Shown piece after piece: positions 1 through 60,160 of a DNA stretch of 64,000 bases. Within the stretch, counting starts at the first letter, position 1. Every line of letters starts with the position of its first letter. The stretch lies in the sequence record PQ462667.1; one strand, written 5' to 3'. Both the position numbers and the translations under genes were made by a program. The stretch is from Escherichia phage HMD-P3. Below the pieces are notes generated by a model. The model searched no databases, was not told the DNA's origin, and saw nothing but the letters and a program-made list of their open reading frames with translations.

Positions 1-1
1 C

Positions 2-223
2 GTCGTTTTTGATAGCTTTTACAGCTTTCGCCGCTTTTGGTTTTGCTGGTTTATTTGCTTCTAACCAATCACAAATCGCGGTCGAGTGTTTCGTTGTATC
101 GTAGACCGCTTTTGATATATCGTCGCAGACTTCCAGCTTAGTAGCGCGCAGACGTTTACCGTAGAAATTAAAATCAGCGGCCAGCTTCAGGATAACGGTT
201 TGTTTTTCTGCGGAAAAAATCAT
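2..223 (-). CDS. hypothetical protein, partial (ORF runs off the window start)
   Basis: Minus-strand ORF with ATG at 221-223 and no stop down to position 2; upstream GGAG-type leader (ccctttaatggagtttta) shared with the next three genes. Confidence 0.4.
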   Translation of the reverse strand, partial: MIFSAEKQTVILKLAADFNFYGKRLRATKLEVCDDISKAVYDTTKHSTAICDWLEANKPAKPKAAKAVKAIKND

Positions 224-319
224 GATAATAAAACTCCATTAAAGGGATTAAAAAACGTTTGTTATTGGCAATATTGCCAAATATAACGCCTCGAATAATA
301 GGCGTTATAATTTGCAACA

Positions 320-532
320 TTAATTTAAAGGCATCAGGCTAGAACTAACACCACAAACAACGGCGGCAATAAAACAAATCAGACCTAAACGCTTTGCCAG
401 CCTAGATTTACGTTTAAAATAATACGAATCTAAATCATTTTGAAAATATGCGAACAATAGCGAGGCCGCCATAATAAATAAGCCTAGAATCAATGATTCA
501 GTAGGATAAAAGATCATTTTTAAAAACTCCAA
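320..532 (-). CDS. small membrane protein (two hydrophobic segments)
   Basis: 70-aa ORF with hydrophobic stretches; same conserved GGAG leader upstream. Confidence 0.5.
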   Translation of the reverse strand: MEFLKMIFYPTESLILGLFIMAASLLFAYFQNDLDSYYFKRKSRLAKRLGLICFIAAVVCGVSSSLMPLN

Positions 533-575
533 TTAAAGGGAAATTATAGTGGGGAATAATCCCCACTAGTTAAAT

Positions 576-983
576 TTATTCACCTGCGGCCTGTTTTACC
601 TCATCGGCAACGCCTAACAACTGCGCCACGGCGTCCAGCGTTTCCAGCTTCGCGCTTTCAAGGCTTGCCAGATCATCGGCGTCCTTGATAATGCCGGAAT
701 CGATAGCGTGCTTTGCAATTACTCGTACATAGTGAGCTTTACGGATTGAGCTGCCGCCGCCTACTTTGCGTGGCTTGTCGCTTTTTTGATATGCTTTCGC
801 GCTGGTCAATTTCGAACGAACTGACACGGGAGAAGTCGCGCCAACTGCTTTCGCGATCTCTTTCAGGCCGTCGCTATTTGCGAATTCTAAACCGTTTTCG
901 TTGATTAACTGCTGATACATGGTAACAGCCTGCTGAGTGTTTTCTTCGTTCCAGGAAAATTTTGCGGTTTTTGCGTTGGTCAT
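576..983 (-). CDS. hypothetical protein
   Basis: 135-aa ORF; conserved leader ttaattggagtttatacc directly upstream of the ATG. Confidence 0.55.
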   Translation of the reverse strand: MTNAKTAKFSWNEENTQQAVTMYQQLINENGLEFANSDGLKEIAKAVGATSPVSVRSKLTSAKAYQKSDKPRKVGGGSSIRKAHYVRVIAKHAIDSGIIKDADDLASLESAKLETLDAVAQLLGVADEVKQAAGE

Positions 984-1084
984 GGTATAAACTCCAATTA
1001 ATTTAATTTAAGGGATTAAATGATTAACATAATGTTAATCGTTATATGCCCCGAACTACTGGGGCATATAAAGTTAACACTAAT

Positions 1085-1336
1085 TTATAATACAGCTTCC
1101 CATTTTTCGTTGCGTTGAACAACCTTTACAACGTCGCCAGACTTTACGCGAACGTTATAAATCGGCTTGCCGTTGTTACTGCGCTCATTTTCAGCGTATA
1201 CCGCGTCAATTGTATCGAACGGCATGAGCGCCGCGCCTTTAATACGTTCGGCTTTTCCGGTTAATTCGTCCGTTTTAGTAACGAAAGGAATAAAAACGGA
1301 TTGACCAATTTTAGGCGCGGTAATAACGTTTTTCAT
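1085..1336 (-). CDS. hypothetical protein
   Basis: 83-aa ORF; same leader motif upstream. Confidence 0.5.
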   Translation of the reverse strand: MKNVITAPKIGQSVFIPFVTKTDELTGKAERIKGAALMPFDTIDAVYAENERSNNGKPIYNVRVKSGDVVKVVQRNEKWEAVL

Positions 1337-1370
1337 GGTATAAACTCCAAGTTATTTGTGGATTGTTCCG

Positions 1371-1400
1371 CATTATCTGCTAGAAAATACTAGCAGATAA
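1371..1400. promoter_or_regulatory. perfect 12-bp inverted repeat with 6-nt spacer (operator-like palindrome)
   Basis: attatctgctag-aaaata-ctagcagataat, about 35 nt upstream of the 1085..1336 start; no T-run, so not a typical terminator. Confidence 0.4.
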
Positions 1401-2159
1401 TAAGAAAAAATCCGCTCGCCATTATAAAATCAATTTAAGGAACTCCACGCGGGCCGCTATATCCCAGTTAGGGGGCGGGGCACATTATGGTAAGTACCGA
1501 CCGTCAAATTGTATCAAGTTATCGCTCTTATCGAACTGGGCACATCTTAAAGCCTATCGGCTAGATTGTCAAATAGTTTTTTCGTTTTCTTTTAAGTTAG
1601 GATTTTCCCAACTGAATAACATTTCGCAAAATATTTTCCCATCTTTATGATGGTACGCTATTTCGCTTCCGTGGTTCGCGCAAAAACTGATCACCGCTTC
1701 AGCTTGTTCTACCGTGATATTGTTAGCCGTTTCTTTGATTTTCATATCGTCGATTCCTTATAATGAATAAGTTTACCGCCGATAGGCTTTAAGATATACC
1801 CAATTTTTTTAAAGAGCGCAGCGGTAAACTTCCCGCCGTGTAGTTCGTCATTGCCGCCCTACGAGATAAATAATAACAAACAACGAAAAAGGCGCAACCT
1901 TATATTTGTAAAGAAATGTAAAGACAAACACCACCGGACACCGTGCGGCGACCTGGGCGCGGCGCGTTAAAATTAAAAGAAACGGGCGCGCGAATACCAC
2001 AAAATAGGGCAGATAAGCAAGTAATTTTTTCATTTATATTTGCTTTGCCCTACTTGACAAAATCTAAAAAGCTCGTGGCAGCGATAAACGGCCTATCCCT
2101 TTATGATTGGATGGCCAAAAACTTTATTGCGTTCTAGGGCGTTTTAGGCGCATTCTAGC

Positions 2160-2640
2160 CTTGTTGATAACTTATCCCCAAAAGCAAAAATGAAATTTTC
2201 CTATTTATCCACTTGACTTTTATTTTCCAGTGGATAACTACTTATTTTATAAAATTAATTAATTGACTTTTATTTGTTAGTATGCATCGGAAAGATAGCA
2301 GACTAATAATTGCTGGGATGATAATCATGCTGGTGGATTGTAACGGCTTAAACTATTAGCAGACTATTAATCACGGAAAATCTCATTAGCCAACTAACTA
2401 TTTCATGATATATAATATACTTATAAATTAATGAGAAATAATAACTATAAGAAATCATCACCAATATAATAACTATAAGAAATCATCACCATTATAATAA
2501 TAACGATAAGAAACTATCGGCCTAAGTGAGAACCACTATCATTTAAGTTATCCACAACGTTATCCACAGCACAAAATAATTTGACACGATAGGCGGCGAT
2601 ATGAGGGCTTTTACACAGACTTATCCACAGGTTATCCTAC
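2160..2640. promoter_or_regulatory. cluster of DnaA-box-like 9-mers
   Basis: Three perfect TTATCCACA at about 2548, 2560 and 2621 plus 1-mismatch variants near 2163, 2173, 2205 and 2231; region is ORF-free. Confidence 0.55.
2438..2517. repeat. iteron-like tandem direct repeat (28-bp period, about 2.8 copies)
   Basis: ataataactataagaaatcatcacca at about 2438 and 2466, degenerate third copy about 2494-2517. Confidence 0.6.
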
Positions 2641-2922
2641 TGTATAAATATACAGGGTAAAAAGGCAGTGTTAACGACTGCAATCAATTTTAAGCGGCCT
2701 AAAACGCTTTCTAACGAGCTAAACGATGCGGGGTAATATTAAAGTAAAGCCGCGACACGGCGCCCTGGTGGCTTCGCCGTGTTTTGCTCGTTATTACACC
2801 GCTGCGCGGTTATCATAAAATTAGGCGTTAGGCAAGGAAAATAAAAAGGTAAATTAATCTTTGCCTATGCTAGAAAATTACCGTTATCATTCACTCACCA
2901 ATTAACGAGGGAGGCCGAACAA

Positions 2923-3900
2923 ATGAGGCTTTATAAACCTGATAATGCCACCGTTTTAAAAGGTGCGCTGCGTAACCTGCTGGATGGTAGCAGAACAACC
3001 AGCATTAAGCACTTTGTTAACAAGGCCGAAGATATTCACCAAAATTTTTTTGATGATTTCGACGCCTATGATATGAGTAGTTTTTTGCAACTATATAAGC
3101 AAGGGGCAACGCTTGTTTTATATAATCGGGATAATCACCTGCTCACTAGTCGGGGGCCGGATACTGATTTCATAATCGTAAAAGGCAACACAGTAAAAGC
3201 CTATGATACTGGGGCGGGCTTAGAAGTTTTCACAATAGTAAACTATGAGGCTAATGATAATGATCTTTATGACGTAGAAAATTTTCTTGATTCATTTTGG
3301 CGTTATTTATCAGTTGGCTGGAATCGGTCAATTGGTGACGGGTATCGTCTGGCGGCTGTAATGGCCTTTGATGATGATGGCAATTTTTTGCTACCGTCGG
3401 AAATATACCCCTACATATATGATGGAGATATAGAAAGCGCGGGCTTTTCTTTCTGGAAGGAGAAAGATCAGCCCATTGACAACACGGAAAAACATGCTGT
3501 AAATTCTAGCACTCAAACTACTGAAAACAAAGGAAAAAATGCCATGACCAAGATCTCTAATATCGTTGCCGCCAATAAGTCTGCCGTTGTAAACGCTGCA
3601 AAACTGGAAGCGGGTAAAATTGCACTAACTCAAATCACGAAAGTAGCGGCTAAAAAAGCACCGTTCATGATCAAAGGTTATATCGATACGCCGATTGGTC
3701 GTGTAGTGATCGCTAACCTGCTGAGTGTAGCGGTTGACCAGTACGCCCCGAGTAACCAGAAAGCGAAAGCGGTAGCGGGGGCGGCTATGGAAGCGGCAAT
3801 GTTAGAAATGGTGCAAAGTTTTAACATCGCTGAGATGATCGATGAAATGGTAAAAGGTATCGATATTTCTACTTTTACCGTTAACACCGAAAACGAGTAA
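2923..3900 (+). CDS. hypothetical protein (325 aa)
   Basis: Long ORF with strong SD (gagggagg) 7 nt upstream; followed by a hairpin and T-run. Confidence 0.7.
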   Translation: MRLYKPDNATVLKGALRNLLDGSRTTSIKHFVNKAEDIHQNFFDDFDAYDMSSFLQLYKQGATLVLYNRDNHLLTSRGPDTDFIIVKGNTVKAYDTGAGLEVFTIVNYEANDNDLYDVENFLDSFWRYLSVGWNRSIGDGYRLAAVMAFDDDGNFLLPSEIYPYIYDGDIESAGFSFWKEKDQPIDNTEKHAVNSSTQTTENKGKNAMTKISNIVAANKSAVVNAAKLEAGKIALTQITKVAAKKAPFMIKGYIDTPIGRVVIANLLSVAVDQYAPSNQKAKAVAGAAMEAAMLEMVQSFNIAEMIDEMVKGIDISTFTVNTENE

Positions 3901-3928
3901 TAACTAGCCTATTGTAAAGTTTTGTAAA

Positions 3929-3954
3929 GGTCGCCTTTTATGGTGGCCTTTTTT
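3929..3954 (+). terminator. rho-independent terminator candidate
   Basis: ggtcgcc-ttttat-ggtggcc stem (with G-U pairs) followed by tttttt; a TATAAT hexamer follows at about 3957. Confidence 0.5.
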
Positions 3955-4018
3955 GCTATAATGCCTTTACACCGTTTGAGGACGGTTGAAAATTTTCCCA
4001 AAAATTTGGAGGCTTAAA

Positions 4019-4249
4019 ATGGTTGCTTTTTCTTCTTCTGACGCTCTTTTCACTGGTAAAGGCTGGGTATCAAATCGCTGGATTATTCAAGAAATGGTGC
4101 AAGAATACGGCATCGCTAAAACTTATAATACCATTCAGGCGCTTTATGATAATGATCAAATCGATCAGCAAACGGCGGGCTTTTTACTGGATACCCTGAA
4201 GGCGGAACACTGTACCAAAAAACAAGCCGCTAAAATTGTTTTAATGTAA
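4019..4249 (+). CDS. hypothetical protein (start moved to the ATG behind GGAGG)
   Basis: In-frame ATG at 4019 preceded by ggaggcttaaa; the track start at 3986 is a TTG without an RBS. Confidence 0.55.
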   Translation: MVAFSSSDALFTGKGWVSNRWIIQEMVQEYGIAKTYNTIQALYDNDQIDQQTAGFLLDTLKAEHCTKKQAAKIVLM

Positions 4250-4297
4250 TTAATAACGGGGCGTTACTTTCGCCCCACTAACTAGGGAGTATTACAA

Positions 4298-4480
4298 ATG
4301 ATTATTTTTCGGGCTATTCTGGCGGGTATCTTGGGCGCTATTTTGACCCTTTTCGCCACCGCTTATGGTATTCAAGATTCTTATTGTGGTTTGGTAAACA
4401 CAAAACCTATGGTTATTATTGGCGCGGGCGTCGCTGTATTTTCTTATCTGCTGGGCTGCATGACTAGTAAAGGAGAATAA
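4298..4480 (+). CDS. small membrane protein
   Basis: 60 aa, two hydrophobic segments; RBS ctagggag. Confidence 0.55.
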   Translation: MIIFRAILAGILGAILTLFATAYGIQDSYCGLVNTKPMVIIGAGVAVFSYLLGCMTSKGE

Positions 4481-4482
4481 AA

Positions 4483-4695
4483 ATGATCCGCAACGTTTCT
4501 CTTGCACGTTCGAAAGGCTTTAAGCTGGTGGACGCTAACACGTTCGAGCGTCCAGATTGTAAAATCGAATATGTAGCACGTAATAAAAATGCCTTTCGTG
4601 TTACCGAGAAAAAATTTGATAAGCGCGGCAACGTGATCATTGAAACGGTTAGGCACTTTGCCACCTTTTACGCTGCGTTTCGTGGGGTACTATGA
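4483..4695 (+). CDS. hypothetical protein
   Basis: RBS aaaggagaa; tightly packed with neighbours. Confidence 0.55.
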   Translation: MIRNVSLARSKGFKLVDANTFERPDCKIEYVARNKNAFRVTEKKFDKRGNVIIETVRHFATFYAAFRGVL

Positions 4696-4823
4696 AAAGC
4701 GTTATTGTTGTTCTCCTTGCAATGGCTGGCGGTTTTATCGCCACCTTATTTAAGAATGATCCCATTTCGTTGGGTATCTTTATGCTTTTATCTGGATACC
4801 TGATCGGGAGGATATGCAAATGA
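4692..4823 (+). CDS. small membrane protein (43 aa, below the ORF-track cutoff)
   Basis: ATGA overlap with the upstream stop; hydrophobic product MKSVIVVLLAMAGGFIATLF; hand translation. Confidence 0.4.
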   Translation: MKSVIVVLLAMAGGFIATLFKNDPISLGIFMLLSGYLIGRICK

Positions 4824-5164
4824 TCATTTACGAGGGCAATCGTTTTGTTGCTAATTGCCGCCCGGCATTGTTAGCAAACTATTTGAACCAGCTTTCGCCA
4901 GCTTATAAGGGCGTTATTAATATTTACGAGGGAAAGGCGCATTATAAAATCAATGCGGTCGTTGCCCGTGAACTAGCGTTTCAATTTTTAACCTTTGCAT
5001 CTTGCGACGTTCAGGTTATGGGTGAGGCATTAATTGCAGAAAATGAGGATGATTTTATTAATATTTTTCGCAAGGTATGCACCGAGCGCCTGATAATGAA
5101 AGGCGCATATATTCAATCCACGGCTGATAGTATTGAAACAGCGTTTCGAAAGGTGGCGCAATGA
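4814..5164 (+). CDS. hypothetical protein
   Basis: 116-aa ORF; gggagg RBS. Confidence 0.55.
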   Translation: MQMIIYEGNRFVANCRPALLANYLNQLSPAYKGVINIYEGKAHYKINAVVARELAFQFLTFASCDVQVMGEALIAENEDDFINIFRKVCTERLIMKGAYIQSTADSIETAFRKVAQ

Positions 5165-5376
5165 ATGAAATTACTTGGAATATGTTGCTGAAGGTTAAAC
5201 GGGTAAAATTAACACAGGATTTATGGGGAGTAGGTAAAACAGGGGATGTATTCACTGTGTTTAAAGACGCTCATCATAGGTTTATAAGAAGGAATAACAA
5301 TACCGGTACAGCGTTTTATTTAATTGATTTAATCAAATTACACGGTGAGGATATTTTCAAACTAGAATATGAGTAA
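5161..5376 (+). CDS. hypothetical protein
   Basis: ATGA start/stop overlap with the upstream gene. Confidence 0.5.
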   Translation: MNEITWNMLLKVKRVKLTQDLWGVGKTGDVFTVFKDAHHRFIRRNNNTGTAFYLIDLIKLHGEDIFKLEYE

Positions 5377-5431
5377 CTATATAATTTTGGCGTATTGCAA
5401 TGAGATAGCCAACTAATAACGGGGCGTTATT

Positions 5432-5626
5432 ATGAGCAATAAAATTATTGTAACCAAAACCAGTACAATGGTTGATATTTTTTACGTGCCCGATACGCCG
5501 GAAAACCGACAAGCGGTTGAGCGTGGGGAATATGATAAAGTGATTTATGATCACGATGGTTATTATCAGTATTTAGTGGATTCCTACGGGGAGGAGGAAA
5601 AAATCACGCATCGACTACCAGACTAA
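5432..5626 (+). CDS. hypothetical protein
   Basis: 64-aa ORF preceded by the taataacggggcg element also seen at about 4250. Confidence 0.5.
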   Translation: MSNKIIVTKTSTMVDIFYVPDTPENRQAVERGEYDKVIYDHDGYYQYLVDSYGEEEKITHRLPD

Positions 5627-5665
5627 TAATCATGGGGCGCAACTATCTGGGAGTGCCCCCAATTT

Positions 5666-5690
5666 TCAAATGAGAATGATTCTCATTTGA
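5666..5690. repeat. perfect 25-bp palindrome tcaaatgagaatgattctcatttga
   Basis: Read directly; founding copy of the AAATGAGAAT repeat family. Confidence 0.8.
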
Positions 5691-5889
5691 CCGCGCCCGC
5701 TATGGTTAGCCTGCTAATGGTTAGGGTGTTACGTGTCGCCTTGTGTGATCGTTAGCGTGCTAACTAATTTTCAAGCCTCCTCCAATTTTGCCCTTGTTTT
5801 AGTATCCCCACCAAAATTAAACGCGTTAGAATGCGATCTAGGACGTTTTAGCGGTATATTAGAACTATTCACTGCGTAGGAATACTGTA

Positions 5890-5995
5890 TATTTATCCAG
5901 TAGGATAAGCTGTGGATAAGTCTGTTGATAACGCTTCAAAATGGCTAGAATTTTGTCAAGTCAAATCGTGCTGTTGATAAGTCTGGGGATAACTT
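5890..5995. promoter_or_regulatory. second DnaA-box cluster
   Basis: tgtggataa (perfect, reverse orientation) at about 5921, plus ttatccag, tgttgataa (twice) and ggggataac. Confidence 0.5.
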
Positions 5996-6017
5996 AAATA
6001 ACAGTGTTTCTCACTTC

Positions 6018-6180
6018 CGTTCTTAAATGCGAATCATTATCATTCGCATTCCACTTTTTAAATGAGAATCATTCCACTTTCTAAATGAGATTGATTCTCG
6101 TTTCACTTTCTAAATGCGAATTATTATCATTCTCATTCCGCTTTTTAAATGAGAATGATTCTTATTATCATTCGTATTTA
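6018..6180. repeat. about 6 direct or partly palindromic copies of the ctttttaaatgagaatcatt family
   Basis: Copies at about 6023, 6051, 6073, 6098, 6125 and 6143; ORF-free. Confidence 0.7.
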
Positions 6181-6206
6181 GCGCAGGGCAATTGCCCTGC
6201 GCTTTT
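6181..6206. terminator. GC-rich perfect hairpin (gcgcagggc-aatt-gccctgcgc) followed by TTTT
   Basis: 22-bp palindrome then a T-run; could terminate transcripts from either direction. Confidence 0.55.
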
Positions 6207-6943
6207 GTGCAAATCCGACATTGCTCCACGGGTGTTACGTGCGGGCATGTATGTGCAAATCCGACAATTTTTGGCAGTGTGCAAATCTGACCCGAAAAAT
6301 TTTTATAGTGTGCAAATCCGACAATGAATTTTCCTAAAAACTCCAGCAATCCGATGCTGCGCATCAATCCTGTGGAATTAACTAGAATATGTGCAAATCC
6401 GACATGGGTTTATTTGTGCGAATCCGACAAGATTTTTATGACTTCGATGAGAGGGTGTGTGATTGTGTGAGTTTAGGGAGAAGATGAGAGAGTGAGAGAA
6501 AATTAGGGGAACTACGGAAGGGGCGCATGTTTGGTGCAGGGCACCAGATTTGCGGGGATTTTGGGGAAGAGTTGAGAAGATTTGAGTTAATTTGAGATTA
6601 GTGGAGATAAAGTAAAATTTTATTAGCAAAATGGGGCAAAATAACTTGACAAGTGAAAATTTCTGTGGCTCTAAAAACTCAGGCAATCATGGGCCTTCGG
6701 CCCGAAATAATGCTGCTATTTTCAGGAGATTATGTGTTCCTAAAAACTTAGGTAATTGTGCAAATCCGACCATAAATTTCTAGAAACACAATGTGCAAAT
6801 CCGACAGTAATTTCTGGAAATGTGTTTTCAAAAAATGTCTCCTAGAAATAACCGCCCTCCCCATAACCGCCCTGTATAGGAAAACCGGCCTAGGATATTT
6901 ATAGTAGATGAAAAACTGCCCTAGAACATGTGCAAATCCGATT
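6206..6943 (+). repeat. nine same-orientation copies of the 15-mer TGTGCAAATCCGACA
   Basis: Copies at about 6206, 6252, 6278, 6309, 6390, 6415, 6757, 6792 and 6929 (four with one or two substitutions); irregular spacing. Confidence 0.8.
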
Positions 6944-7351
6944 TAAAGTTCAGTGTAAACCCTAGAGTTAGTGTTCAACTATTCCTAGAAACTTAGGAGT
7001 CTAGAAGAAAGTGTTGTGCCATCCTAGCAGATGAGCGGCAACAGGTGTATCATCTTAAACACAGATATTGCCTTTAAATATTTTTTAGTTATTTAAAAGT
7101 AAATATACCCCCATTTCATGAGAGTTAGCCCCTCTAGGCGCGTGCGATTTGATACATCCTCCTAAGTCTCGGTGTGGAAGAACAATTGACGAGAACCTGC
7201 GAGCAGAACCGTCATCAAGTGTTTTCCTACGAGGAATGATGTAAATCTACGGCCTAGAGGTAAAAACAAGTTGATGTTTTTAATCTATGAGATTATTATA
7301 ACACATTATTCTCACGAATGTCAAGCAGATTTCGTTATTTTTAAATTTTCG

Positions 7352-8189
7352 TCATGAGTTTGGAGTTGGGTAAACTTTTATACAACCTTGACTTAATAGA
7401 TACTCTTCTGCCTCTACAGCTTTAATGTTGAATATCTCTTTTGCTCCATCGAATTTATAATGGTTAGCAAATTTATTTTCGAAAAATTTATGTGCTTGAT
7501 GTTCTATTCTGTAAGCGAGTTCTTTCGATCCTTTTAATGATACGGCGACCACCGAGATCTACACCTGAGGAAACACTCTTTCCCTACACGACGCTCTTCC
7601 GATCTTGATGTTCTATTCTGTAAGCGAGTTCTTTCGATCCTTTCTTATATTGGTAGATACCAAATACTTCCATATCTTCGAAACCCGGCACACGCAATTT
7701 ATCATACTCTAGATTCTTAAACCTTTGATGTGGCTCTCTAGAGACTCCAATCTTTGTCTTTAATTTTTTCCTAGACTGATCTTTATTAGAGAAGATATAG
7801 AGATATGTGGGAAATTGAACATCTTCATCTACTTCTGGCTTCTCGACAGGTGTATTAAGGTTGCTTTCTCTAGCACACTGTAAACAGCCGTGCCCATCTA
7901 GGTGGGATCTAGCAGTTTGCATAAAGTATCCTTTATGCTTATAGCACCATATCTCTACTAACTGATTGGCTGTCTTATAATTAACTTTTTCATACCCATA
8001 TTCTTCTTTCTGGACTTTTAAAGCTTTCCTAATAAAGATAAGGTTTAAGGCCTCTTGTTGGAAGTCAGGGTGAAGTTGCCTAATCTTCGTTATATTAGTA
8101 GAGCCATTTGACTTCAAAAAGTTTTTAAGAGGAAACCTCCGGGCTTCCTCTCGTAGCTTTTTATTAATTTCAGTACGTAAATCATCCAT
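7352..8189 (-). CDS. HNH-like (Cys/His-rich) homing-endonuclease-family protein, reading frame broken by the adapter artefact
   Basis: Track ORFs 7352..7552 and 7584..8189 share the duplicated peptide KGSKELAYRIEHQ; paralog of 10216..10659; motif CYKHKGYF...TARSHLDGHGCLQC. Confidence 0.6.
7536..7605 (+). other. Illumina P5/TruSeq adapter with 8-nt index CTGAGGAA (sequencing artefact)
   Basis: Exact AATGATACGGCGACCACCGAGATCTACAC-CTGAGGAA-ACACTCTTTCCCTACACGACGCTCTTCCGATCT; flanked by a direct duplication of about 40 bp (7494-7535 and 7606-7645). Confidence 0.95.
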
Positions 8190-8907
8190 CTTTATTAACC
8201 TTCAGAATAACCCCTTTTGACGCCATGAAAAGGAATGTTGCTAGGTAAGATGACTCGGAATTTAGCGCAGAATAATCTACACTTCCCCTAGGTCTAGTTT
8301 CTTGTTTAGTGTCAAGAATTGTTGATATATCAAACTTAACAGACTTAGCAACTTTTCTAGCTTGTTCAGGATCACGTAAAACTTCAAAGTGAGCAGCATC
8401 TAGAATAGGGTTAGATGTTGTTGAGTCATCAACTATACTTAGATGAACCTGCGCAAGTGTAGATACGATTCCTAGCTTTAATTCAGATAGAGAAGAATAA
8501 GGTGGTTCTACTTTCTTTGTAAGCCTAGGGAGATGATCGTATTTACATTGCTTTTGAGGAATCATCAAAATGTTAGGATAACATTCTAGACATGACTTTG
8601 CATTTCCTTCTTTAAAATACGGTAGTTCTTTATCTGCAAAGACGTGGAATGAGTCTGCTGAAAATCCTTTAATAGTAGGATCAACAGTTTGAATCAGACG
8701 ACGTAAACTAATATAAGAAGGTGCTAGAGTAACTTCTCCTGCATCTTTATTATATTTAGGTTGTCCACTAGCATTAATATATGCAGGATAAAACTCTGCA
8801 CAAAATGCTACTGCATGTGCCTCTAACTCATTAAGCTGAGAAACACATTTCCCATTACAAGCTCTAGCTAACTTAATAATCTCTGCTAAATTCTTTTTAA
8901 TACTCAT
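8182..8907 (-). CDS. hypothetical protein (241 aa)
   Basis: Long AT-rich ORF, start/stop overlap with neighbours. Confidence 0.6.
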   Translation of the reverse strand: MSIKKNLAEIIKLARACNGKCVSQLNELEAHAVAFCAEFYPAYINASGQPKYNKDAGEVTLAPSYISLRRLIQTVDPTIKGFSADSFHVFADKELPYFKEGNAKSCLECYPNILMIPQKQCKYDHLPRLTKKVEPPYSSLSELKLGIVSTLAQVHLSIVDDSTTSNPILDAAHFEVLRDPEQARKVAKSVKFDISTILDTKQETRPRGSVDYSALNSESSYLATFLFMASKGVILKVNKDG

Positions 8908-9527
8908 TAACTACCTCTCTTGTCCTCATTAATAGCAGCTCCCAACGCCTCCATAATAGCATCCTCTAAACTTCCATGTTTACTAGGATTATTAAAATGA
9001 ATAGTACAAACAGAACTCCTAGAAACTCCAGCATCCGCAGGTGCTACGCTTCGCATATCAGATTCAAAAGCTTCTTGAGTATGTTTTAACTGCACAGAAG
9101 GGCCGTAATCTTCCGCAAATTTATATGACTGCGTACTACTTACCACACCCCCACAAGGAACATTGTGCATATCTGACATTAATCTTTTATCGGAGTTATT
9201 CAGCATTGAGATTGTCCCTGACTGCCACGGATCTCTAATAGTCACTGGAGTACTAGGGCGGTTCACCTCAGTCTTCACAAGTTTGTACCCTGCATCGATT
9301 AATGCGTTAATTAGATTATCAGCCGGGATGCGAGCCTTGCCAAAAATCTCACGAGCGTTGTTGAGCCTGCCTTCAAAACCTTTACATGCTCTAATATTAG
9401 TGTGTGCAAAGGTTAGCTTCATAGATTTGAATTGTACAGTAGCAGTTAAATCTTTAAAGCTATAATCCCATGTATTCAGTTCATGGTCTGGTACTACTTG
9501 AATAGGTTGTTGTACATTAAAAGTCAT
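8907..9527 (-). CDS. hypothetical protein (206 aa)
   Basis: Long ORF, translationally coupled to neighbours. Confidence 0.6.
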   Translation of the reverse strand: MTFNVQQPIQVVPDHELNTWDYSFKDLTATVQFKSMKLTFAHTNIRACKGFEGRLNNAREIFGKARIPADNLINALIDAGYKLVKTEVNRPSTPVTIRDPWQSGTISMLNNSDKRLMSDMHNVPCGGVVSSTQSYKFAEDYGPSVQLKHTQEAFESDMRSVAPADAGVSRSSVCTIHFNNPSKHGSLEDAIMEALGAAINEDKRGS

Positions 9528-9712
9528 TATTTATTCTCCAGTTTGTCTAACAGTTTATGGGCTGCGATGTTATATTGTTTAAGTTCACGATTAAGGATTT
9601 GGTTCTCACTCTTTAGCTCTAGATTCTTATTATTAAGAATACTGCAGATTAGTAGAAGTGCTAGTATTAGTAACAGAGAACCTACGAGCATTAAAAGAAA
9701 AAGAGTTTCCAT
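9527..9712 (-). CDS. small membrane protein with coiled-coil tail
   Basis: N-terminal hydrophobic helix LLMLVGSLLLILALLLI. Confidence 0.5.
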   Translation of the reverse strand: METLFLLMLVGSLLLILALLLICSILNNKNLELKSENQILNRELKQYNIAAHKLLDKLENK

Positions 9713-9957
9713 TATTTAACTCCCATGTAACGTTTGAGATACACAATGAAGTCTTCTGCTGTATGCGCTGTGCTACCTTGAGATACGAATAGCTTGAGAG
9801 CTTCACGTTGTAGTTTTAGACCCGCTACCTCACCACGTAATTTTACTAGATCTTCTGCTAGTTCTCTAGCTCTACGCATAATAGCAAAAGATACAAGTAC
9901 TACGATGAATAACATAACTACTAAAATAATTGCTATGATTTCCATATTAACATCCAA
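9712..9957 (-). CDS. small membrane protein
   Basis: Hydrophobic helix IIAIILVVMLFIVVLV. Confidence 0.5.
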   Translation of the reverse strand: MDVNMEIIAIILVVMLFIVVLVSFAIMRRARELAEDLVKLRGEVAGLKLQREALKLFVSQGSTAHTAEDFIVYLKRYMGVK

Positions 9958-10223
9958 CTTTTATCACACATTTGGGCATGCTCTATCAATTCATTCATTG
10001 ATATACTGGCATCATAAATACTCTCTAGTATATCCCTTCTGTCAAATTCGTCAACCAAATATTCTACGTTATTTATTACTACTTTATACAGATCTGGGAC
10101 TAGTGAGCATGTATTTGGTATTGGGCGACTGCTTAAGTCTATTTCATTATAGCCCCACGTTGTTTTAAATAGTTTGTTACTAAGTGCTGCTAATGGATTT
10201 GACCATATAATATAGCTACTCAC
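9933..10223 (-). CDS. hypothetical protein
   Basis: 96-aa ORF. Confidence 0.45.
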   Translation of the reverse strand: MSSYIIWSNPLAALSNKLFKTTWGYNEIDLSSRPIPNTCSLVPDLYKVVINNVEYLVDEFDRRDILESIYDASISMNELIEHAQMCDKSWMLIWKS

Positions 10224-13930: not shown

Positions 13931-14521
13931 TTAGACATTTATATCACCACGTAATACAGCAGCTACATCTTCCCCTATTTGTAATACTTCGCCGGTAGTA
14001 CAATTAACTACTCTATCATAGCTAGTAAACTTACCAGACACAATATCCTCTAGTGGAACTGGAGTTTTACTCATTTCAAATGAGACATTAATATAACGTG
14101 GGTCACGTAAAGAAATAGTATGTACATGTCCGTGAATATTTAGTTTACCACGAAGTTCATTGGGGTGCAAAGGGCAGTGAGATAACCAAAACTTTTTGCC
14201 ACCTCCAGTCTGTTTACCTAGAGCCTGAATATCATCATAAACTTCCACTAAGTCCCTAATACTCAGTCCTTGACGCTCCGCATCATGATTACCCATAATC
14301 AGTTGATTAGGAACATTGTGGATAACCGACTTTAATTTGGCCAAGCCTTCACGACCTACTGCAATATCTCCTAGCAAAATAAGTTTTGTTCGCTTACCAA
14401 TATTCTTGGACAAAGTATCTAAAATATACTCATCGTGTTCTTTCATGTTCTTAAACCACGGACGGAAACGTAACGCTCCAGGGTGATCTAGGTGCAAGTC
14501 TGACCAGAATTTAACTTTCAT
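13931..14521 (-). CDS. calcineurin-like metallophosphoesterase
   Basis: Motifs SDLHLDH, GDIAVG, GNHD, GHVH. Confidence 0.7.
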   Translation of the reverse strand: MKVKFWSDLHLDHPGALRFRPWFKNMKEHDEYILDTLSKNIGKRTKLILLGDIAVGREGLAKLKSVIHNVPNQLIMGNHDAERQGLSIRDLVEVYDDIQALGKQTGGGKKFWLSHCPLHPNELRGKLNIHGHVHTISLRDPRYINVSFEMSKTPVPLEDIVSGKFTSYDRVVNCTTGEVLQIGEDVAAVLRGDINV

Positions 14522-52759: not shown

Positions 52760-52801
52760 GCTAATCAGCCGGGTTGCTAGTCGACCTGGCTTTTATTTTA
52801 T

Positions 52802-52830
52802 TTGCTTTCAGCCAAAAATTTATATATAAT
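52802..52830 (+). promoter_or_regulatory. T5-type promoter (TTGCTT-N17-TATAAT) with conserved leader
   Basis: tttgctttcagccaaaaatttatatataat, then agatttataaatttgagaggag-ATG. Confidence 0.6.
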
Positions 52831-52858
52831 AGATTTATAAATTTGAGAGGAGAAAGAT

Positions 52859-53239
52859 ATGGAATTAAAGCCCTATATAGTTGAATCTACATGTGGTAGT
52901 TTCCATCTGGGTGTGGATAATATTGCTGAGGCTGTCTTTGCTGCTACAGGTGATTACTCGCATATAGAGGGTGTTGCATACCCTACCATTATTGGCGATT
53001 GGGTGGGAACAAATCTAGATGTATCGCCTTATAACCCATATTGCTTGTTTGATGAAGACAGAGATGAAGTAAAATGTAATCTTGAATTTGTGTATAATAG
53101 AGTGTTAAAAGTGTACCAACGTAGCCCCAATGGGTACGAAGATATTACTTGGAGTATTAAACAGTATCTTAAAGATATATACTCTAGTTTTTCTGACGAA
53201 GACCTAGAAACAGTTGCAGTGGAGTTTAATAATGACTAA
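52859..53239 (+). CDS. hypothetical acidic protein
   Basis: 126-aa ORF behind the promoter/leader module. Confidence 0.55.
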   Translation: MELKPYIVESTCGSFHLGVDNIAEAVFAATGDYSHIEGVAYPTIIGDWVGTNLDVSPYNPYCLFDEDRDEVKCNLEFVYNRVLKVYQRSPNGYEDITWSIKQYLKDIYSSFSDEDLETVAVEFNND

Positions 53240-59387: not shown

Positions 59388-59395
59388 AAATTTAT

Positions 59396-59424
59396 TTGCT
59401 TTCAGGAAAATTTTTCTGTATAAT
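59396..59424 (+). promoter_or_regulatory. T5-type promoter (TTGCTT-N17-TATAAT) with conserved leader
   Basis: ttgctttcaggaaaatttttctgtataat, then agatttataaatttgagagaggag. Confidence 0.6.
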
Positions 59425-59455
59425 AGATTTATAAATTTGAGAGAGGAGTTTAAAT

Positions 59456-60160
59456 ATGGCTGGTTCTCGTAGAAAGAAACACATTCATGAAATCCCGGAT
59501 GAAGTCTTTAAAAAGGTTATAGAGCATCTGGAGAACGGTGGTACTAAGAAAGCAGCATGTGAAATGCTCGGCGTATCGTCCAATCCAACTATGGAAAGGA
59601 TGATTGAAGAATGGCAAGACCGCCAGATCCAAGTTGCCGAAATGAAGAAAAAGAAACGTGGCACACTTATTGAAGGCATCGAGTTAGCTAACGTTATTGA
59701 GCAGTATTTATCTGGTGATTCTTTTGAAGAAATTGCCGATCGTAATTATCGCTCTGTAGCAATGGTTAAATCTGTTCTGGAACGATACGGTGCTCTACTT
59801 CGTTTGAATGATATTGTAGATCCATTGAATCCTCCGATTATTCCTGATGATGCTGTAGCAGAAGAATTTGCAGTTGGTGAACTTGTTTGGGTTCCTGGAT
59901 ACCAGTGTATCGGTGAAATCAAAAAAGCAATGGATAATCCTGTTGGTTGCTACCGTGTATGGCTTCTATCAGAAGGCAAACAACAGAACGTCCATTATAT
60001 GAATTACGAGCTGGCTTCTGTTAAACATCTGGAAAAGTTAGGGGTAGACGTAAAATCTCTGGGGTATAAATGGACTCGTGAAGAAATTATTACGTTGATT
60101 AACGAAGCTGTTAAGGCTGCCCTGAAACTTGATAAAGAAAAAGGAAAACGCCGTGAGTAA
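59456..60160 (+). CDS. putative DNA-binding protein (helix-turn-helix-like N-terminus)
   Basis: GGTKKAACEMLGVSSNPTMERMI resembles an HTH. Confidence 0.5.
   Translation: MAGSRRKKHIHEIPDEVFKKVIEHLENGGTKKAACEMLGVSSNPTMERMIEEWQDRQIQVAEMKKKKRGTLIEGIELANVIEQYLSGDSFEEIADRNYRSVAMVKSVLERYGALLRLNDIVDPLNPPIIPDDAVAEEFAVGELVWVPGYQCIGEIKKAMDNPVGCYRVWLLSEGKQQNVHYMNYELASVKHLEKLGVDVKSLGYKWTREEIITLINEAVKAALKLDKEKGKRRE

What the first reader, a model, noticed from the sequence alone, without database searches (positions are those of the whole stretch)
6430..6620. C-depleted purine-rich tract with extreme strand asymmetry
About 190 bp in which the plus strand is almost entirely G/A/T (gagagggtgtgtgattgtgtgagtttagggagaagatgagagagtgagagaaaattagggga...). 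The only ORF is an implausible minus-strand 102-aa frame of low-complexity residues. Such tracts can form triplex or G-rich structures or act as a polymerase or packaging pause site. It sits inside the repeat locus between the two 15-mer sub-arrays.
Basis: seen in the sequence. Interest (0 to 1): 0.4.

Follow-up and report, generated by a model that had tools for sequence, protein, structure and literature searches.

The report
Polar curved DNA beside T5 genome end
The C-poor stretch is real and is a conserved piece of non-coding DNA, with one G-rich strand and a repeat every helical turn, lying just inside the right edge of the long terminal repeat of T5-like phages; it most likely helps the packaging enzyme find and cut the genome end, but this has not been tested.

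Summary
Observation confirmed. Window 6430-6620 has 11 C in 191 nt against a 20% background. It holds the two longest C-free runs of the 64 kb (6446-6511 and 6554-6626), split by a GC hairpin (6523-6554).

The window is a T5-like phage. The tract lies 45-225 bp inside the right boundary of the long terminal repeat (…TTGACA…CTGTGGCTC|TAAAAA, 6671|6672). This is the non-coding region annotated in T5 as the injection stop signal, between iteron sub-arrays DRD1-6 and DRD7-9.

The same layout occurs in four Demerecviridae lineages.
- Two thirds of tract columns vary, yet C stays near 3% and T↔C changes are under-represented (p=0.003).
- G blocks and A/T blocks alternate with a 10-bp period in all nine genomes tested.
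- The hairpin-to-cut distance is exactly 113 bp in 28 of 28 Markadamsvirinae sequences.

Best reading (confidence about 0.4, inferred): a strand-polar, probably curved architectural arm of the terminase cutting and packaging-start site, in a cosB-like position.

Main rival: a Rho-loading (rut) tract or transcription insulator. The minus-strand RNA is the most C-rich, G-poor and unstructured stretch in the window, and a conserved consensus promoter points at it.

Triplex and G-quadruplex readings fail. The 102-aa ORF is a by-product of a G-free strand.

The parts
6446..6511 (+). Left C-free run of 66 nt. It is G/T/A only and made of degenerate 10-bp units (GAGAG/GGG starts). It includes the highly conserved block GAGGGTGTGTGATTGTGTG.
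   Evidence: Of 66 columns, 45 vary among 28 Markadamsvirinae sequences, yet pooled C is 2.9%.
6523..6554 (+). Central GC-rich hairpin: CGCA..GGTGC-AGG-GCACC..TGCG. It lies within the only C-containing block of the tract (6512-6553) and is followed by GGGATTTTGGGG.
   Evidence: Folds at -22.4 kcal/mol on the plus strand and -12.6 on the minus strand. A hairpin is present in every lineage with a different sequence. One outer pair is C-G in 10 sequences and A-U in 8. The inner stem varies as GGTGC/GCACC, GGCGT/ACGCC or GGCG/CGCC.
6554..6626 (+). Right C-free run of 73 nt. Six units sit in exact 10-bp register at 6554-6613: GGGGATTTTG GGGAAGAGTT GAGAAGATTT GAGTTAATTT GAGATTAGTG GAGATAAAGT. Two of them are Wang et al.'s 'direct repeat A' copies 2 and 3.
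   Evidence: T5 annotation. Of 73 columns, 49 vary with pooled C of 2.6%. No indels: TTTTGGGG lies exactly 113 bp from the cut in 28 of 28 sequences.
6614..6671 (+). A/T-rich terminal segment, in phase with the units to its left: AAAATTTTAT TAGCAAAATG GGGCAAAATA ACTTGACAAG TGAAAATTTC TGTGGCTC. It ends at the right boundary of the terminal repeat (the mature right genome end).
   Evidence: Boundary placed by the T5 AY587007 repeat end (10139), Sw2 PhageTerm (9816), KpGranit PhageTerm (10100), phiR201 (9901) and IMG/VR contig ends. In 6627-6671, 35 of 45 columns are invariant. GGGNAAA...TTGACA is conserved in My1 and KpGranit; pVp-1 keeps the TTGACA.
6672..6725 (+). First unique DNA outside the repeat: TAAAAACTCAGGCAATCAT-GGGCCTTCGGCCC-GAAATAATGCTGCTATTTTCAGG. 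It is nearly invariant. The hairpin is at 6691-6703.
   Evidence: In 6672-6711, 34 of 40 columns are invariant. Alignment A1. The Sw2 record annotates this hairpin as a minus-strand terminator.
6207..6429 (+). Iteron sub-array DRD1-6 (GTGCAAATCCGACA), all in one orientation, to the left of the tract.
   Evidence: T5 annotation 'direct repeat D copies 1-6'.
6758..6942 (+). Iteron sub-array DRD7-9, same orientation, outside the repeat. DRD7 starts 87 bp from the boundary in the window; I read the same offset by eye from the T5 sequence.
   Evidence: T5 'direct repeat D copies 7-9'.
6180..6203 (.). Perfect palindrome AGCGCAGGGCAATTGCCCTGCGCT, the homologue of the T5 7.9% major nick site. The nick on the minus strand would fall after GCGC, between 6202 and 6203.
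7295..7324 (-). Consensus sigma-70 promoter (TTGACA, 18-bp spacer, TATAAT, with an upstream TG) pointing left toward the repeat and the tract. No conserved ORF lies behind it.
   Evidence: Equivalent promoters face the boundary in My1 (11 of 12 matches), pVp-1 (12 of 12) and KpGranit (12 of 12).

Best explanation
The tract is the strand-polar, helically phased and probably intrinsically curved arm of the module that defines the right boundary of the T5-type terminal repeat. It would be the architectural part of the terminase recognition and cutting (pac/cos-type) site.

Shown: about 18 helical turns of DNA carry a G-rich block (GRG) followed by an A/T block once per 10 bp, always on the same strand. 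These run in register into GGGCAAAATA-ACTTGACAAG-TGAAAATTTC-TGTGGCTC, where mature genomes end.

Inferred:
- The left end of T5 is injected first, so the right end should be packaged first. The initiating cut would then be made at 6671|6672, and the DNA just to its left, which is this tract, would enter the capsid first. That is the position cosB holds relative to cosN in lambda.
- A packaging protein (a small terminase or a partner, possibly together with whatever binds the DRD iterons on both sides) would bind or wrap this phased DNA. That would place the nuclease at a fixed distance and set the packaging direction.
- C is excluded because every turn presents the same oriented C-free unit.
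For: 1. Position. The tract ends 45 bp from the repeat boundary. That boundary is placed at the same nucleotide by independent end determinations: T5, Sw2, KpGranit, phiR201 and IMG/VR contig ends.

2. Family-wide architecture. The order is iterons, then a G-rich C-poor tract with a GC hairpin, then phased A-tracts and TTGACA, then the boundary where it has been determined. It holds in Markadamsvirinae (442 records) and Sugarlandvirus. In My1 the tract is the strongest skew of the first 16 kb (0.75). In pVp-1 it is the strongest skew of 49.5 kb; the pVp-1 boundary itself is not determined.

3. Helical phasing. AA/TT periodicity of 9.75-10 bp over the last 226 bp has power 2.03, against a mean of 0.52 (sd 0.29) in 283 control segments of the window; none reaches it. 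G and AA/TT both show a 10-bp period in all 9 genomes tested. Six units lie in exact register.

4. Spacing is conserved while sequence is not. TTTTGGGG lies exactly 113 bp from the cut in 28 of 28 sequences, although 49 of 73 columns vary. The whole distance from the last iteron to the cut is 239-241 bp in 27 of 28.

5. The cut site is the most conserved part of the locus: 69 of 85 columns are invariant within 45 bp either side. The left genome ends share no such motif. This fits sequence-specific initiation at the right boundary.

6. C exclusion is maintained through substitution. T↔C columns versus T↔A/G columns are 4:30 in the tract and 13:14 in the flanks (Fisher p=0.003).
Against: - No protein binding, curvature or packaging data exist for this DNA. 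The T5 pac site and packaging direction are inferred, not demonstrated.
- Bending of double-stranded DNA does not by itself require strand asymmetry. G also outnumbers C in the spacer positions of the 10-bp units (9 G against 0 C in the six-unit block, counted by eye), which hints at a single-strand or RNA-level constraint.
- This model leaves unexplained the conserved consensus promoter that points at the tract in all four lineages.
- Epseptimaviruses tolerate an iteron copy inside the left half, giving 16-17 C.
- T5 records annotate the region as the injection stop signal.
Confidence: 0.4

Rival explanations
1. Rho-loading (rut) tract or bidirectional transcription insulator between the pre-early genes in the repeat and the early region. 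Leftward transcripts, from the consensus promoter at 7324->7295 or from read-through of the leftward early operon, would carry the minus-strand sequence. That gives two G-free, C-rich, unstructured stretches split by a hairpin, like rutA-boxB-rutB of lambda tR1. Rho would load there and stop transcription before it runs into the repeat. On the plus strand, the hairpin plus T-run would stop rightward pre-early read-through.
For: - The minus-strand RNA over 6446-6525 has %C minus %G of 41, against a window mean of -1 (sd 8), and 27 YC dimers in 80 nt. Both are the maxima for either strand of the 64 kb. The RNA is predicted unstructured apart from the one hairpin.
- G exclusion on that strand persists through substitutions, and GRG on the plus strand reads as CYC on the RNA, so YC dimers are kept.
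- A near-perfect sigma-70 promoter 620-760 bp outside the boundary faces the tract in the window, My1 and KpGranit. pVp-1 has one about 440 bp from the tract. No conserved ORF follows it in the window.
- The scan found no strong minus-strand intrinsic terminator between promoter and tract in the window.
- In Epseptimavirus the hairpin is followed by TTTTT, and plus-strand folds use G.U pairs.
Against: - A rut site needs neither a 10.0-bp register continuing into the cut site nor indel-free spacing (113 bp in 28 of 28).
- My1 keeps an equally extreme tract although a strong intrinsic terminator (13 pairs, followed by TTTTT) lies between its promoter and the boundary.
- The scan does not call the window's hairpin a terminator, because the T-run starts 4 nt after the stem.
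- No paper linking T5 to Rho-dependent termination was found.
Confidence: 0.25
2. Part of the injection stop signal or of second-step-transfer control. The curved, protein-coated tract, with the DRD iterons, would act as a physical roadblock in the tail or portal, or as the site where A1/A2 act to restart DNA transfer.
For: - The T5 record AY543070 includes the tract in its 'injection stop signal' feature, 9140..10149.
- It lies 370-550 bp to the right of the estimated shear point (9618; Davison, bioRxiv 10.1101/866236). During the pause that DNA would lie in the tail or envelope channel.
- No experiment has dissected the region.
Against: [quoted passage not shown]
- Nothing in the sequence ties the tract to the stop, whereas its register and spacing are tied to the repeat boundary.
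- Strand composition should not matter to duplex DNA passing through a channel.
Confidence: 0.12
3. Non-B DNA or a priming element: G-quadruplex, triplex or R-loop formation by the G-rich strand, serving as a replication origin primer (ColE1, mitochondrial CSBII or switch-region type) or as a polymerase pause site.
For: - GC skew of 0.74 and 8 G-runs of at least 3 nt.
- DnaA boxes, iterons and A/T-rich DNA nearby resemble an origin.
- Sugarlandvirus has canonical G4 motifs.
Against: - No canonical G4 motif in 7 of 8 genomes.
- GGG and GAG interchange freely.
- The longest purine run is 10 nt.
- No conserved rightward promoter would make G-rich RNA. The conserved promoter faces the other way and would make pyrimidine-rich RNA.
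- T5 origins were mapped near the genome centre, according to Davison.
Confidence: 0.05
4. No function of its own. The tract would be a degenerate array of tandemly amplified 10-bp units that merely fills the space between functional iterons and the cut site. On this view the composition is inherited from the founder unit.
For: - TRF finds only 2.1 clean copies of a 10-bp unit.
- Only about a third of columns are invariant.
Against: - Lineages whose tracts give no BLAST match to one another (My1) keep the same skew, phasing and position.
- C is excluded although about 68% of columns have changed.
- The spacing is free of indels.
Confidence: 0.08

Closest known systems
T5 'Repeat Region 3', annotated as the injection stop signal of the left terminal repeat (Heusterspreute 1987; Wang 2005, AY587007; Davison, bioRxiv 10.1101/866236)
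   Same: The tract is the same locus. It is the stretch between direct repeat D copies 6 and 7 and contains Wang's 'direct repeat A' copies 2 and 3. The order of LexA-like palindrome, DnaA boxes, DRC palindromes, nick site, DRD iterons and repeat end is colinear with T5.
   Different: The literature I could read lists repeats and palindromes only. It does not mention strand asymmetry, 10-bp phasing, fixed spacing to the repeat end, curvature of this part or Rho. Davison places the stop signal further left.
Terminase recognition sites with bent DNA beside the cut: lambda cosN-I2-cosB, SPP1 pacL-pacC-pacR, P1 pac (from my knowledge of those systems)
   Same: It lies next to the mature end on the side inferred to be packaged first. 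It has phased A-tracts, repeated elements on both sides of the cut (DRD1-6 and DRD7-9) as in SPP1 and P1, and a highly conserved cut-site core.
   Different: As far as I know, no known pac or cos site excludes one base from one strand over about 180 bp. No binding protein has been identified. The T5 terminus is one edge of a roughly 10-kb direct repeat, not a cohesive end or a headful start.
Rho-utilisation sites, for example lambda tR1 rutA-boxB-rutB (from my knowledge)
   Same: On the minus-strand RNA there are two C-rich, G-poor, unstructured stretches of about 70 nt flanking a hairpin, with many YC dimers. The RNA is untranslated and lies downstream of a strong promoter.
   Different: It is more extreme than typical rut sites, with 3 G in 80 nt. 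It has strict 10-bp register and indel-free spacing to a DNA cut site, which Rho does not need. No evidence of termination exists.
Herpesvirus pac1 and ciliate telomere repeats, that is, a T-run flanked by G-runs near a DNA end (recalled from memory; a lead only)
   Same: GGGGATTTTGGGG (or GTTTTTGGGG) lies 113 bp from the end, and the G-rich strand runs 5'->3' toward the terminus.
   Different: Only the right end is G-rich. The left ends of T5, SPC35, Sw2, KpGranit, My1 and phiR201 show no consistent asymmetry or shared motif. The distance to the end differs from pac1.

Membership tests
T5-type terminal-repeat non-coding region (Repeat Region 3, annotated as injection stop signal) | Lies in the non-coding right end of the left terminal repeat of a T5-like phage, colinear with the T5 repeats (DnaA boxes, DRC, nick palindrome, DRD iterons). 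| tested here: met
   About 92% identity to SP01 and SPC35 over 1.7 kb. T5 annotations. Motif positions.
T5-type terminal-repeat non-coding region (Repeat Region 3, annotated as injection stop signal) | Acts in cis to stop DNA transfer at about 8% of the genome. | not testable with these tools
   Needs first-step-transfer (blender) assays on mutants. The literature says the region has not been dissected.
Terminase recognition site (pac/cos architecture) | Lies immediately next to the site where mature genome ends are made. | tested here: met
   The tract ends 45 bp from the boundary defined in T5, Sw2, KpGranit, phiR201 and by IMG/VR contig ends.
Terminase recognition site (pac/cos architecture) | Intrinsically bent or helically phased DNA with fixed spacing to the cut. 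| tested here: met
   10-bp AA/TT and G periodicity in 9 of 9 genomes. 113-bp spacing in 28 of 28 sequences. Curvature itself was inferred, not measured.
Terminase recognition site (pac/cos architecture) | Bound by the terminase small subunit and required for cutting and packaging; lies on the first-packaged side. | not testable with these tools
   No binding or packaging data. Packaging direction is inferred from left-end-first injection.
Rho-dependent terminator (rut site) | An RNA stretch of at least 60-80 nt that is C-rich, G-poor and unstructured. | tested here: met
   Minus strand: 36 C and 3 G in 80 nt, 27 YC dimers (the window maximum), only one hairpin predicted.
Rho-dependent terminator (rut site) | Transcribed in that orientation as untranslated RNA. 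| tested here: inconclusive
   A conserved consensus promoter faces it in four lineages and no conserved ORF follows in the window. There are no expression data, and My1 has an intervening intrinsic terminator.
Rho-dependent terminator (rut site) | 3' ends that depend on Rho or are sensitive to bicyclomycin. | not testable with these tools
   No paper found.
Intrinsic (Rho-independent) terminator, for the central hairpin on the plus strand | A GC-rich stem-loop followed immediately by a U-rich tract. | tested here: not met
   The stem is present. In the window the T-run follows GGGA, 4 nt after the stem, and the scan does not call it. Epseptimavirus versions (GCTGC-G/A-TTTTT) come closer.
G-quadruplex-forming sequence | Four G-runs of at least 3 nt with loops of 7 nt or less (or 12 nt or less). 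| tested here: not met
   No such motif in the window, T5, SPC35, an Epseptimavirus, phiR201 or pVp-1. My1 has one only with loops up to 12 nt. Canonical motifs occur only in Sugarlandvirus.
H-DNA or triplex-forming tract | A long homopurine-homopyrimidine mirror repeat. | tested here: not met
   The longest purine run in the tract is 10 nt; longer runs occur elsewhere in the window.
R-loop or G-skew priming region (ColE1, CSBII or switch-region type) | A promoter upstream that makes the G-rich strand the RNA. | tested here: not met
   No conserved rightward promoter. The conserved promoter is on the opposite strand.
Iteron-type replication origin | Iterons and DnaA boxes together with an adjacent initiator gene and a mapped origin. 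| tested here: inconclusive
   Iterons and DnaA boxes are present. No initiator gene is adjacent. Davison cites T5 origins near the genome centre.

The most novel reading that the evidence does not exclude
Transcription-coupled marking of the packaging start. The conserved consensus promoter outside the repeat would drive host RNA polymerase into the boundary. There the G-free rut-like tract and hairpin would stall or release it through Rho, on a curved, polar DNA arm. That event would license or position terminase to cut at CTGTGGCTC|TAAAAA. This would be a host-polymerase and Rho analogue of the T7 requirement for RNA polymerase pausing at the concatemer junction. It is the one model that uses all the conserved features together: the strand polarity, the 10-bp register, the exact spacing and the facing promoter.
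Probability: 0.1. Interest if true: 0.75.

Novelty: new variant of a known kind. Interest (0 to 1): 0.45.

Why it matters
The right end of the T5 terminal repeat has been catalogued for about 40 years as a thicket of repeats labelled 'injection stop signal'. No function has been assigned to any part of it, and the T5 packaging site has never been defined.

This analysis splits the region. The last 230 bp or so, plus about 55 bp outside the repeat, behave as one module locked to the genome end: exact spacing, helical register and a near-invariant cut site. That module is conserved across four Demerecviridae lineages infecting Escherichia, Salmonella, Klebsiella, Pectobacterium and Vibrio.

This gives concrete, separable experiments for three questions: how T5 ends are cut, what insulates pre-early from early transcription, and which part of the region is left to be the true stop signal. 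It also matters for engineering T5-like therapeutic phages and for placing termini correctly in assemblies.

Tried and rejected
- **Telomere-like G-rich 3' strands at both ends.** Rejected. The T5 left end is C-rich on the plus strand, but My1 and phiR201 are not.
- **A shared inverted cut-site motif at both ends** (CWGTGG seen in T5). Rejected. The left ends of SPC35, Sw2, KpGranit, My1 and phiR201 do not share it.
- **TTGACA at 6646 as the -35 of a boundary promoter with a curved upstream activator.** Rejected. The best -10 candidate (TCTAAA, 18-bp spacer) lacks the key A2 and T6 positions. The spacer is 19 bp in KpGranit, My1 and pVp-1 have no -10 at all, and the scan does not call it.
- **A small RNA gene on the plus strand of the tract.** No conserved promoter, and no Rfam hit. 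The only weak hits fall elsewhere and below threshold.
- **Protein-coding potential of the 102-aa ORF.** No PHROG family. The longest open frame changes between relatives, and G-free DNA cannot encode TAG or TGA.
- **Plasmid or origin homology.** No plasmid match.
- **Cytosine deamination as the cause of the bias.** Rejected on composition, since G rather than T replaces C.
- **Helical phasing of the DRD iterons.** Spacings of 46, 26, 31, 81 and 25 bp show no common phase (my arithmetic).
- **Davison 2015.** The paper could not be retrieved.
Full report
**1.

Window 6430-6620 has 57 A, 69 G, 54 T and 11 C, so C is 5.8% against 20% for the whole window. The two longest C-free runs in the 64 kb are adjacent: 6446-6511 (66 nt) and 6554-6626 (73 nt). 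They are separated by a 42-bp block that holds 8 of the Cs. GC skew in 150-nt windows peaks at 0.74, against a mean of -0.03 (sd 0.17), and no other part of the window exceeds 0.6.

G replaces C, while A and T stay near background. The tract is therefore G-rich rather than homopurine: its longest purine run is 10 nt. The 102-aa minus-strand ORF exists.

**2. Where it is**

The 1.7 kb around the tract is about 92% identical to Salmonella phages SP01 and SPC35. It matches 555 phage records, nearly all T5-like, and no plasmid. The tract alone matches 442 records.

In T5 the homologous stretch is AY543070 positions 9987-10169. That lies inside the left terminal repeat (1..10219) and inside the feature annotated 'injection stop signal' (9140..10149). 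It is 240-420 bp to the right of the 7.9% major nick.

AY587007 annotates direct repeat D copies 1-6 to its left and copies 7-9 to its right, with 'direct repeat A' copies 2 and 3 inside it.

The right boundary of the repeat falls at window 6671|6672, in ...TTGACAAGTGAAAATTTCTGTGGCTC|TAAAAACTC. Five independent sources agree on it:
- the T5 repeat end at 10139;
- the Sw2 PhageTerm end at 9816;
- the KpGranit PhageTerm end at 10100;
- the phiR201 repeat end at 9901;
- IMG/VR genome contigs that stop 234-236 bp after the last iteron.

So the tract occupies the stretch 45-225 bp inside the boundary. In the right copy of the repeat it is nearly the last DNA of the virion chromosome.

**3. Conservation across the family**

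I aligned 31 distinct sequences.

Among the 28 Markadamsvirinae, 94 of the 139 columns in the two C-free runs vary, yet pooled C stays at 2.6-2.9%. Pure A/G columns number 32 and pure C/T columns 4. T varies with A or G in 30 columns and with C in 4. In the flanks those counts are 14 and 13 (Fisher p=0.003). C on the plus strand, which is G on the minus strand, is therefore selected against rather than merely inherited.

The most conserved part of the locus is the cut site itself: 69 of 85 columns are invariant within 45 bp on either side.

Lineages whose tracts are too divergent to align well keep the same layout:
- Klebsiella phage KpGranit (Sugarlandvirus) has iterons, a G-rich C-poor tract, GGGGTTGACA and CTGTGGCTC|TAAAAA.
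- Pectobacterium phage My1 (Mccorquodalevirinae) has its strongest GC skew of the first 16 kb (0.75; 9 C and 62 G in 150 nt) ending about 70 bp before its repeat end.
- Vibrio phage pVp-1 (Ermolyevavirinae) has the strongest skew of 49.5 kb at the homologous spot next to TTGACA. Its repeat boundary is not determined.

A GC-rich hairpin sits in the middle of the tract in every lineage, with a different sequence each time. Within Markadamsvirinae one outer pair is C-G in 10 sequences and A-U in 8. The inner stem appears as GGTGC/GCACC, GGCGT/ACGCC or GGCG/CGCC.

**4. Anatomy**

Written in rows of ten, the right half is GGGGATTTTG GGGAAGAGTT GAGAAGATTT GAGTTAATTT GAGATTAGTG GAGATAAAGT AAAATTTTAT TAGCAAAATG GGGCAAAATA ACTTGACAAG TGAAAATTTC TGTGGCTC. 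A G-rich triplet opens each helical turn, an A/T block closes it, and the register runs straight into the cut. T5, an Epseptimavirus, My1 and KpGranit show the same register.

AA/TT periodicity of 9.75-10 bp over the last 226 bp has power 2.03. The mean over 283 control segments of the window is 0.52 (sd 0.29), and none reaches the observed value. G and AA/TT are both 10-bp periodic in all nine genomes tested.

The spacing is rigid. TTTTGGGG lies exactly 113 bp from the cut in 28 of 28 Markadamsvirinae sequences, although two thirds of the intervening tract columns vary. The distance from the last iteron to the cut is 239-241 bp in 27 of 28.

These are properties of double-stranded DNA: one unit per turn, the same face of the helix and a fixed distance. 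They are the usual signature of curved or wrapped DNA.

**5. Best explanation**

The tract is most likely the architectural, direction-setting arm of the site where terminase recognises and cuts the concatemer to make the right genome end.

The chain of inference is as follows. T5 injects its left end first. In phages where this has been studied, such as lambda and T7 (my knowledge), the end injected first is the end packaged last. The right end should therefore be packaged first. The initiating cut would be at 6671|6672, and the DNA that stays with terminase and enters the capsid first would be this tract. That is the cosB position.

Three further observations fit sequence-specific initiation at the right boundary:
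- the cut-site core is conserved;
- the left ends have no comparable motif;
- iterons lie on both sides of the cut.

A same-orientation unit on every turn would give both the periodicity and the strand polarity, and a polar array would tell the enzyme which side to package. None of this has been shown biochemically, so my confidence is about 0.4.

**6. The main rival**

Read as RNA from the minus strand, the tract is the most rut-like stretch in the window. It has 36 C and 3 G in 80 nt and 27 YC dimers, and it is unstructured apart from the hairpin.

A consensus sigma-70 promoter (TTGACA, 18-bp spacer, TATAAT, with an upstream TG; 7324->7295) lies just past the last leftward early gene. It fires toward the tract, with no conserved ORF behind it. 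Near-perfect promoters in the same orientation exist in My1, pVp-1 and KpGranit.

A Rho-loading site, or a bidirectional insulator between the pre-early and early regions, would explain the strand-level selection better than packaging does. It does not explain the exact 10-bp register running into the cut or the indel-free spacing. My1 also keeps the tract although a strong intrinsic terminator lies between its promoter and the boundary. I give this reading 0.25. The two functions could coexist.

**7. Other readings**

A role in the injection stop cannot be excluded. The tract lies in the annotated feature, 370-550 bp beyond the estimated shear point. However, Davison places the signal further left, and nothing in the sequence links the tract to the stop.

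The remaining readings fail their own criteria:
- Triplex: the longest purine run is 10 nt.
- G-quadruplex: no canonical motif outside Sugarlandvirus.
- R-loop priming by G-rich RNA: no conserved rightward promoter.

The 102-aa ORF has no PHROG match. Its frame is not conserved, and it is open only because a G-free strand cannot contain TAG or TGA.

**8. Novelty**

The locus and its repeats are long known. The literature I could read does not mention the base exclusion, the phasing, the fixed spacing to the end, the family-wide conservation or the facing promoter. I could not retrieve Davison 2015 or Heusterspreute 1987.

I class the tract as a new variant of a known kind: a terminus-proximal recognition architecture with an unusual strand-polar composition. 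Interest is moderate. It turns part of an old, vaguely labelled region into a defined module with clear experiments.

Noticed in passing
window 7536-7605, with duplicates at 7497-7534 and 7606-7643: A full Illumina P5 adapter, i5 index (CTGAGGAA) and TruSeq read-1 adapter are embedded in the assembly, flanked by a 38-bp duplication. This assembly artefact splits a minus-strand early ORF into 7352..7552 and 7584..8189.
   Followed up: partly
window 5882-5901; T5 L002 2411-2430; pVp-1 L106 about 13960-14045: T5 'palindrome D' (TACTGTATAAATATACAGTA) fits the LexA SOS-box pattern CTGT-N8-ACAG. The window copy has one mismatch (CTGTATATTTATCCAG). Vibrio phage pVp-1 has two copies. In all three the box sits next to the paired DnaA boxes. 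Davison's preprint does not mention LexA.
   Followed up: partly
window 5668-5688 and five copies in 6016-6170; also pVp-1, and the left genome ends of Sw2 and My1: The 'DRC' palindromes (AAATGAGAATnATTCTCATTT) resemble the 7-1-7 Fur box TGATAATnATTATCA. This is notable for phages that use Fur-regulated receptors such as FhuA. Binding was not tested.
   Followed up: no
window 7295-7324 (minus strand); My1 L095 13606-13634; pVp-1 L106 13009-13037; KpGranit L028 2657-2686: A near-perfect sigma-70 consensus promoter lies 620-760 bp outside the repeat boundary (in pVp-1, about 440 bp from the tract; its boundary is not determined). It points into the repeat in all four lineages, although the DNA just downstream of it differs between T5 and the window. 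Its product or purpose is unknown.
   Followed up: partly
L029 (Sugarland MG459987), record position 10138: The PhageTerm 'repeat region' end in this record falls at ...CCTGCGC|TTATGTGC. That is the homologue of the T5 7.9% nick site, not the CTGTGGCTC|TAAAAA boundary used by its relative KpGranit. A strand nick was probably mistaken for a terminus.
   Followed up: partly
window 6672-6725: The first 54 bp outside the repeat, including the hairpin GGGCCTTCGGCCC, are almost invariant across Tequintavirus and Epseptimavirus. They are more conserved than most of the repeat's non-coding DNA.
   Followed up: partly
window 6840-6880: Short direct repeats AACCGCCCT(C/G) (ATAACCGCCCTCCCCATAACCGCCCTGTAT) are invariant in all five aligned phages and are also present in My1 and KpGranit just outside the boundary. 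Their function is unknown.
   Followed up: no
window 59390-59480 and 52780-52900: The other long C-free runs of the window are A/T-rich early promoters of the T5 P_N25 type with purine-rich leaders (…TTGCTTTCAGGAAAATTTTTCTGTATAATAGATT…ATTTGAGAGAGGAG). They are unrelated to the tract.
   Followed up: no
L026 (AY587007) versus L002 (AY543070): The two T5 records differ at the cut-site core, CTGTGGATC versus CTGTGGCTC. They also number the repeat end differently, 10139 versus 10219.
   Followed up: no
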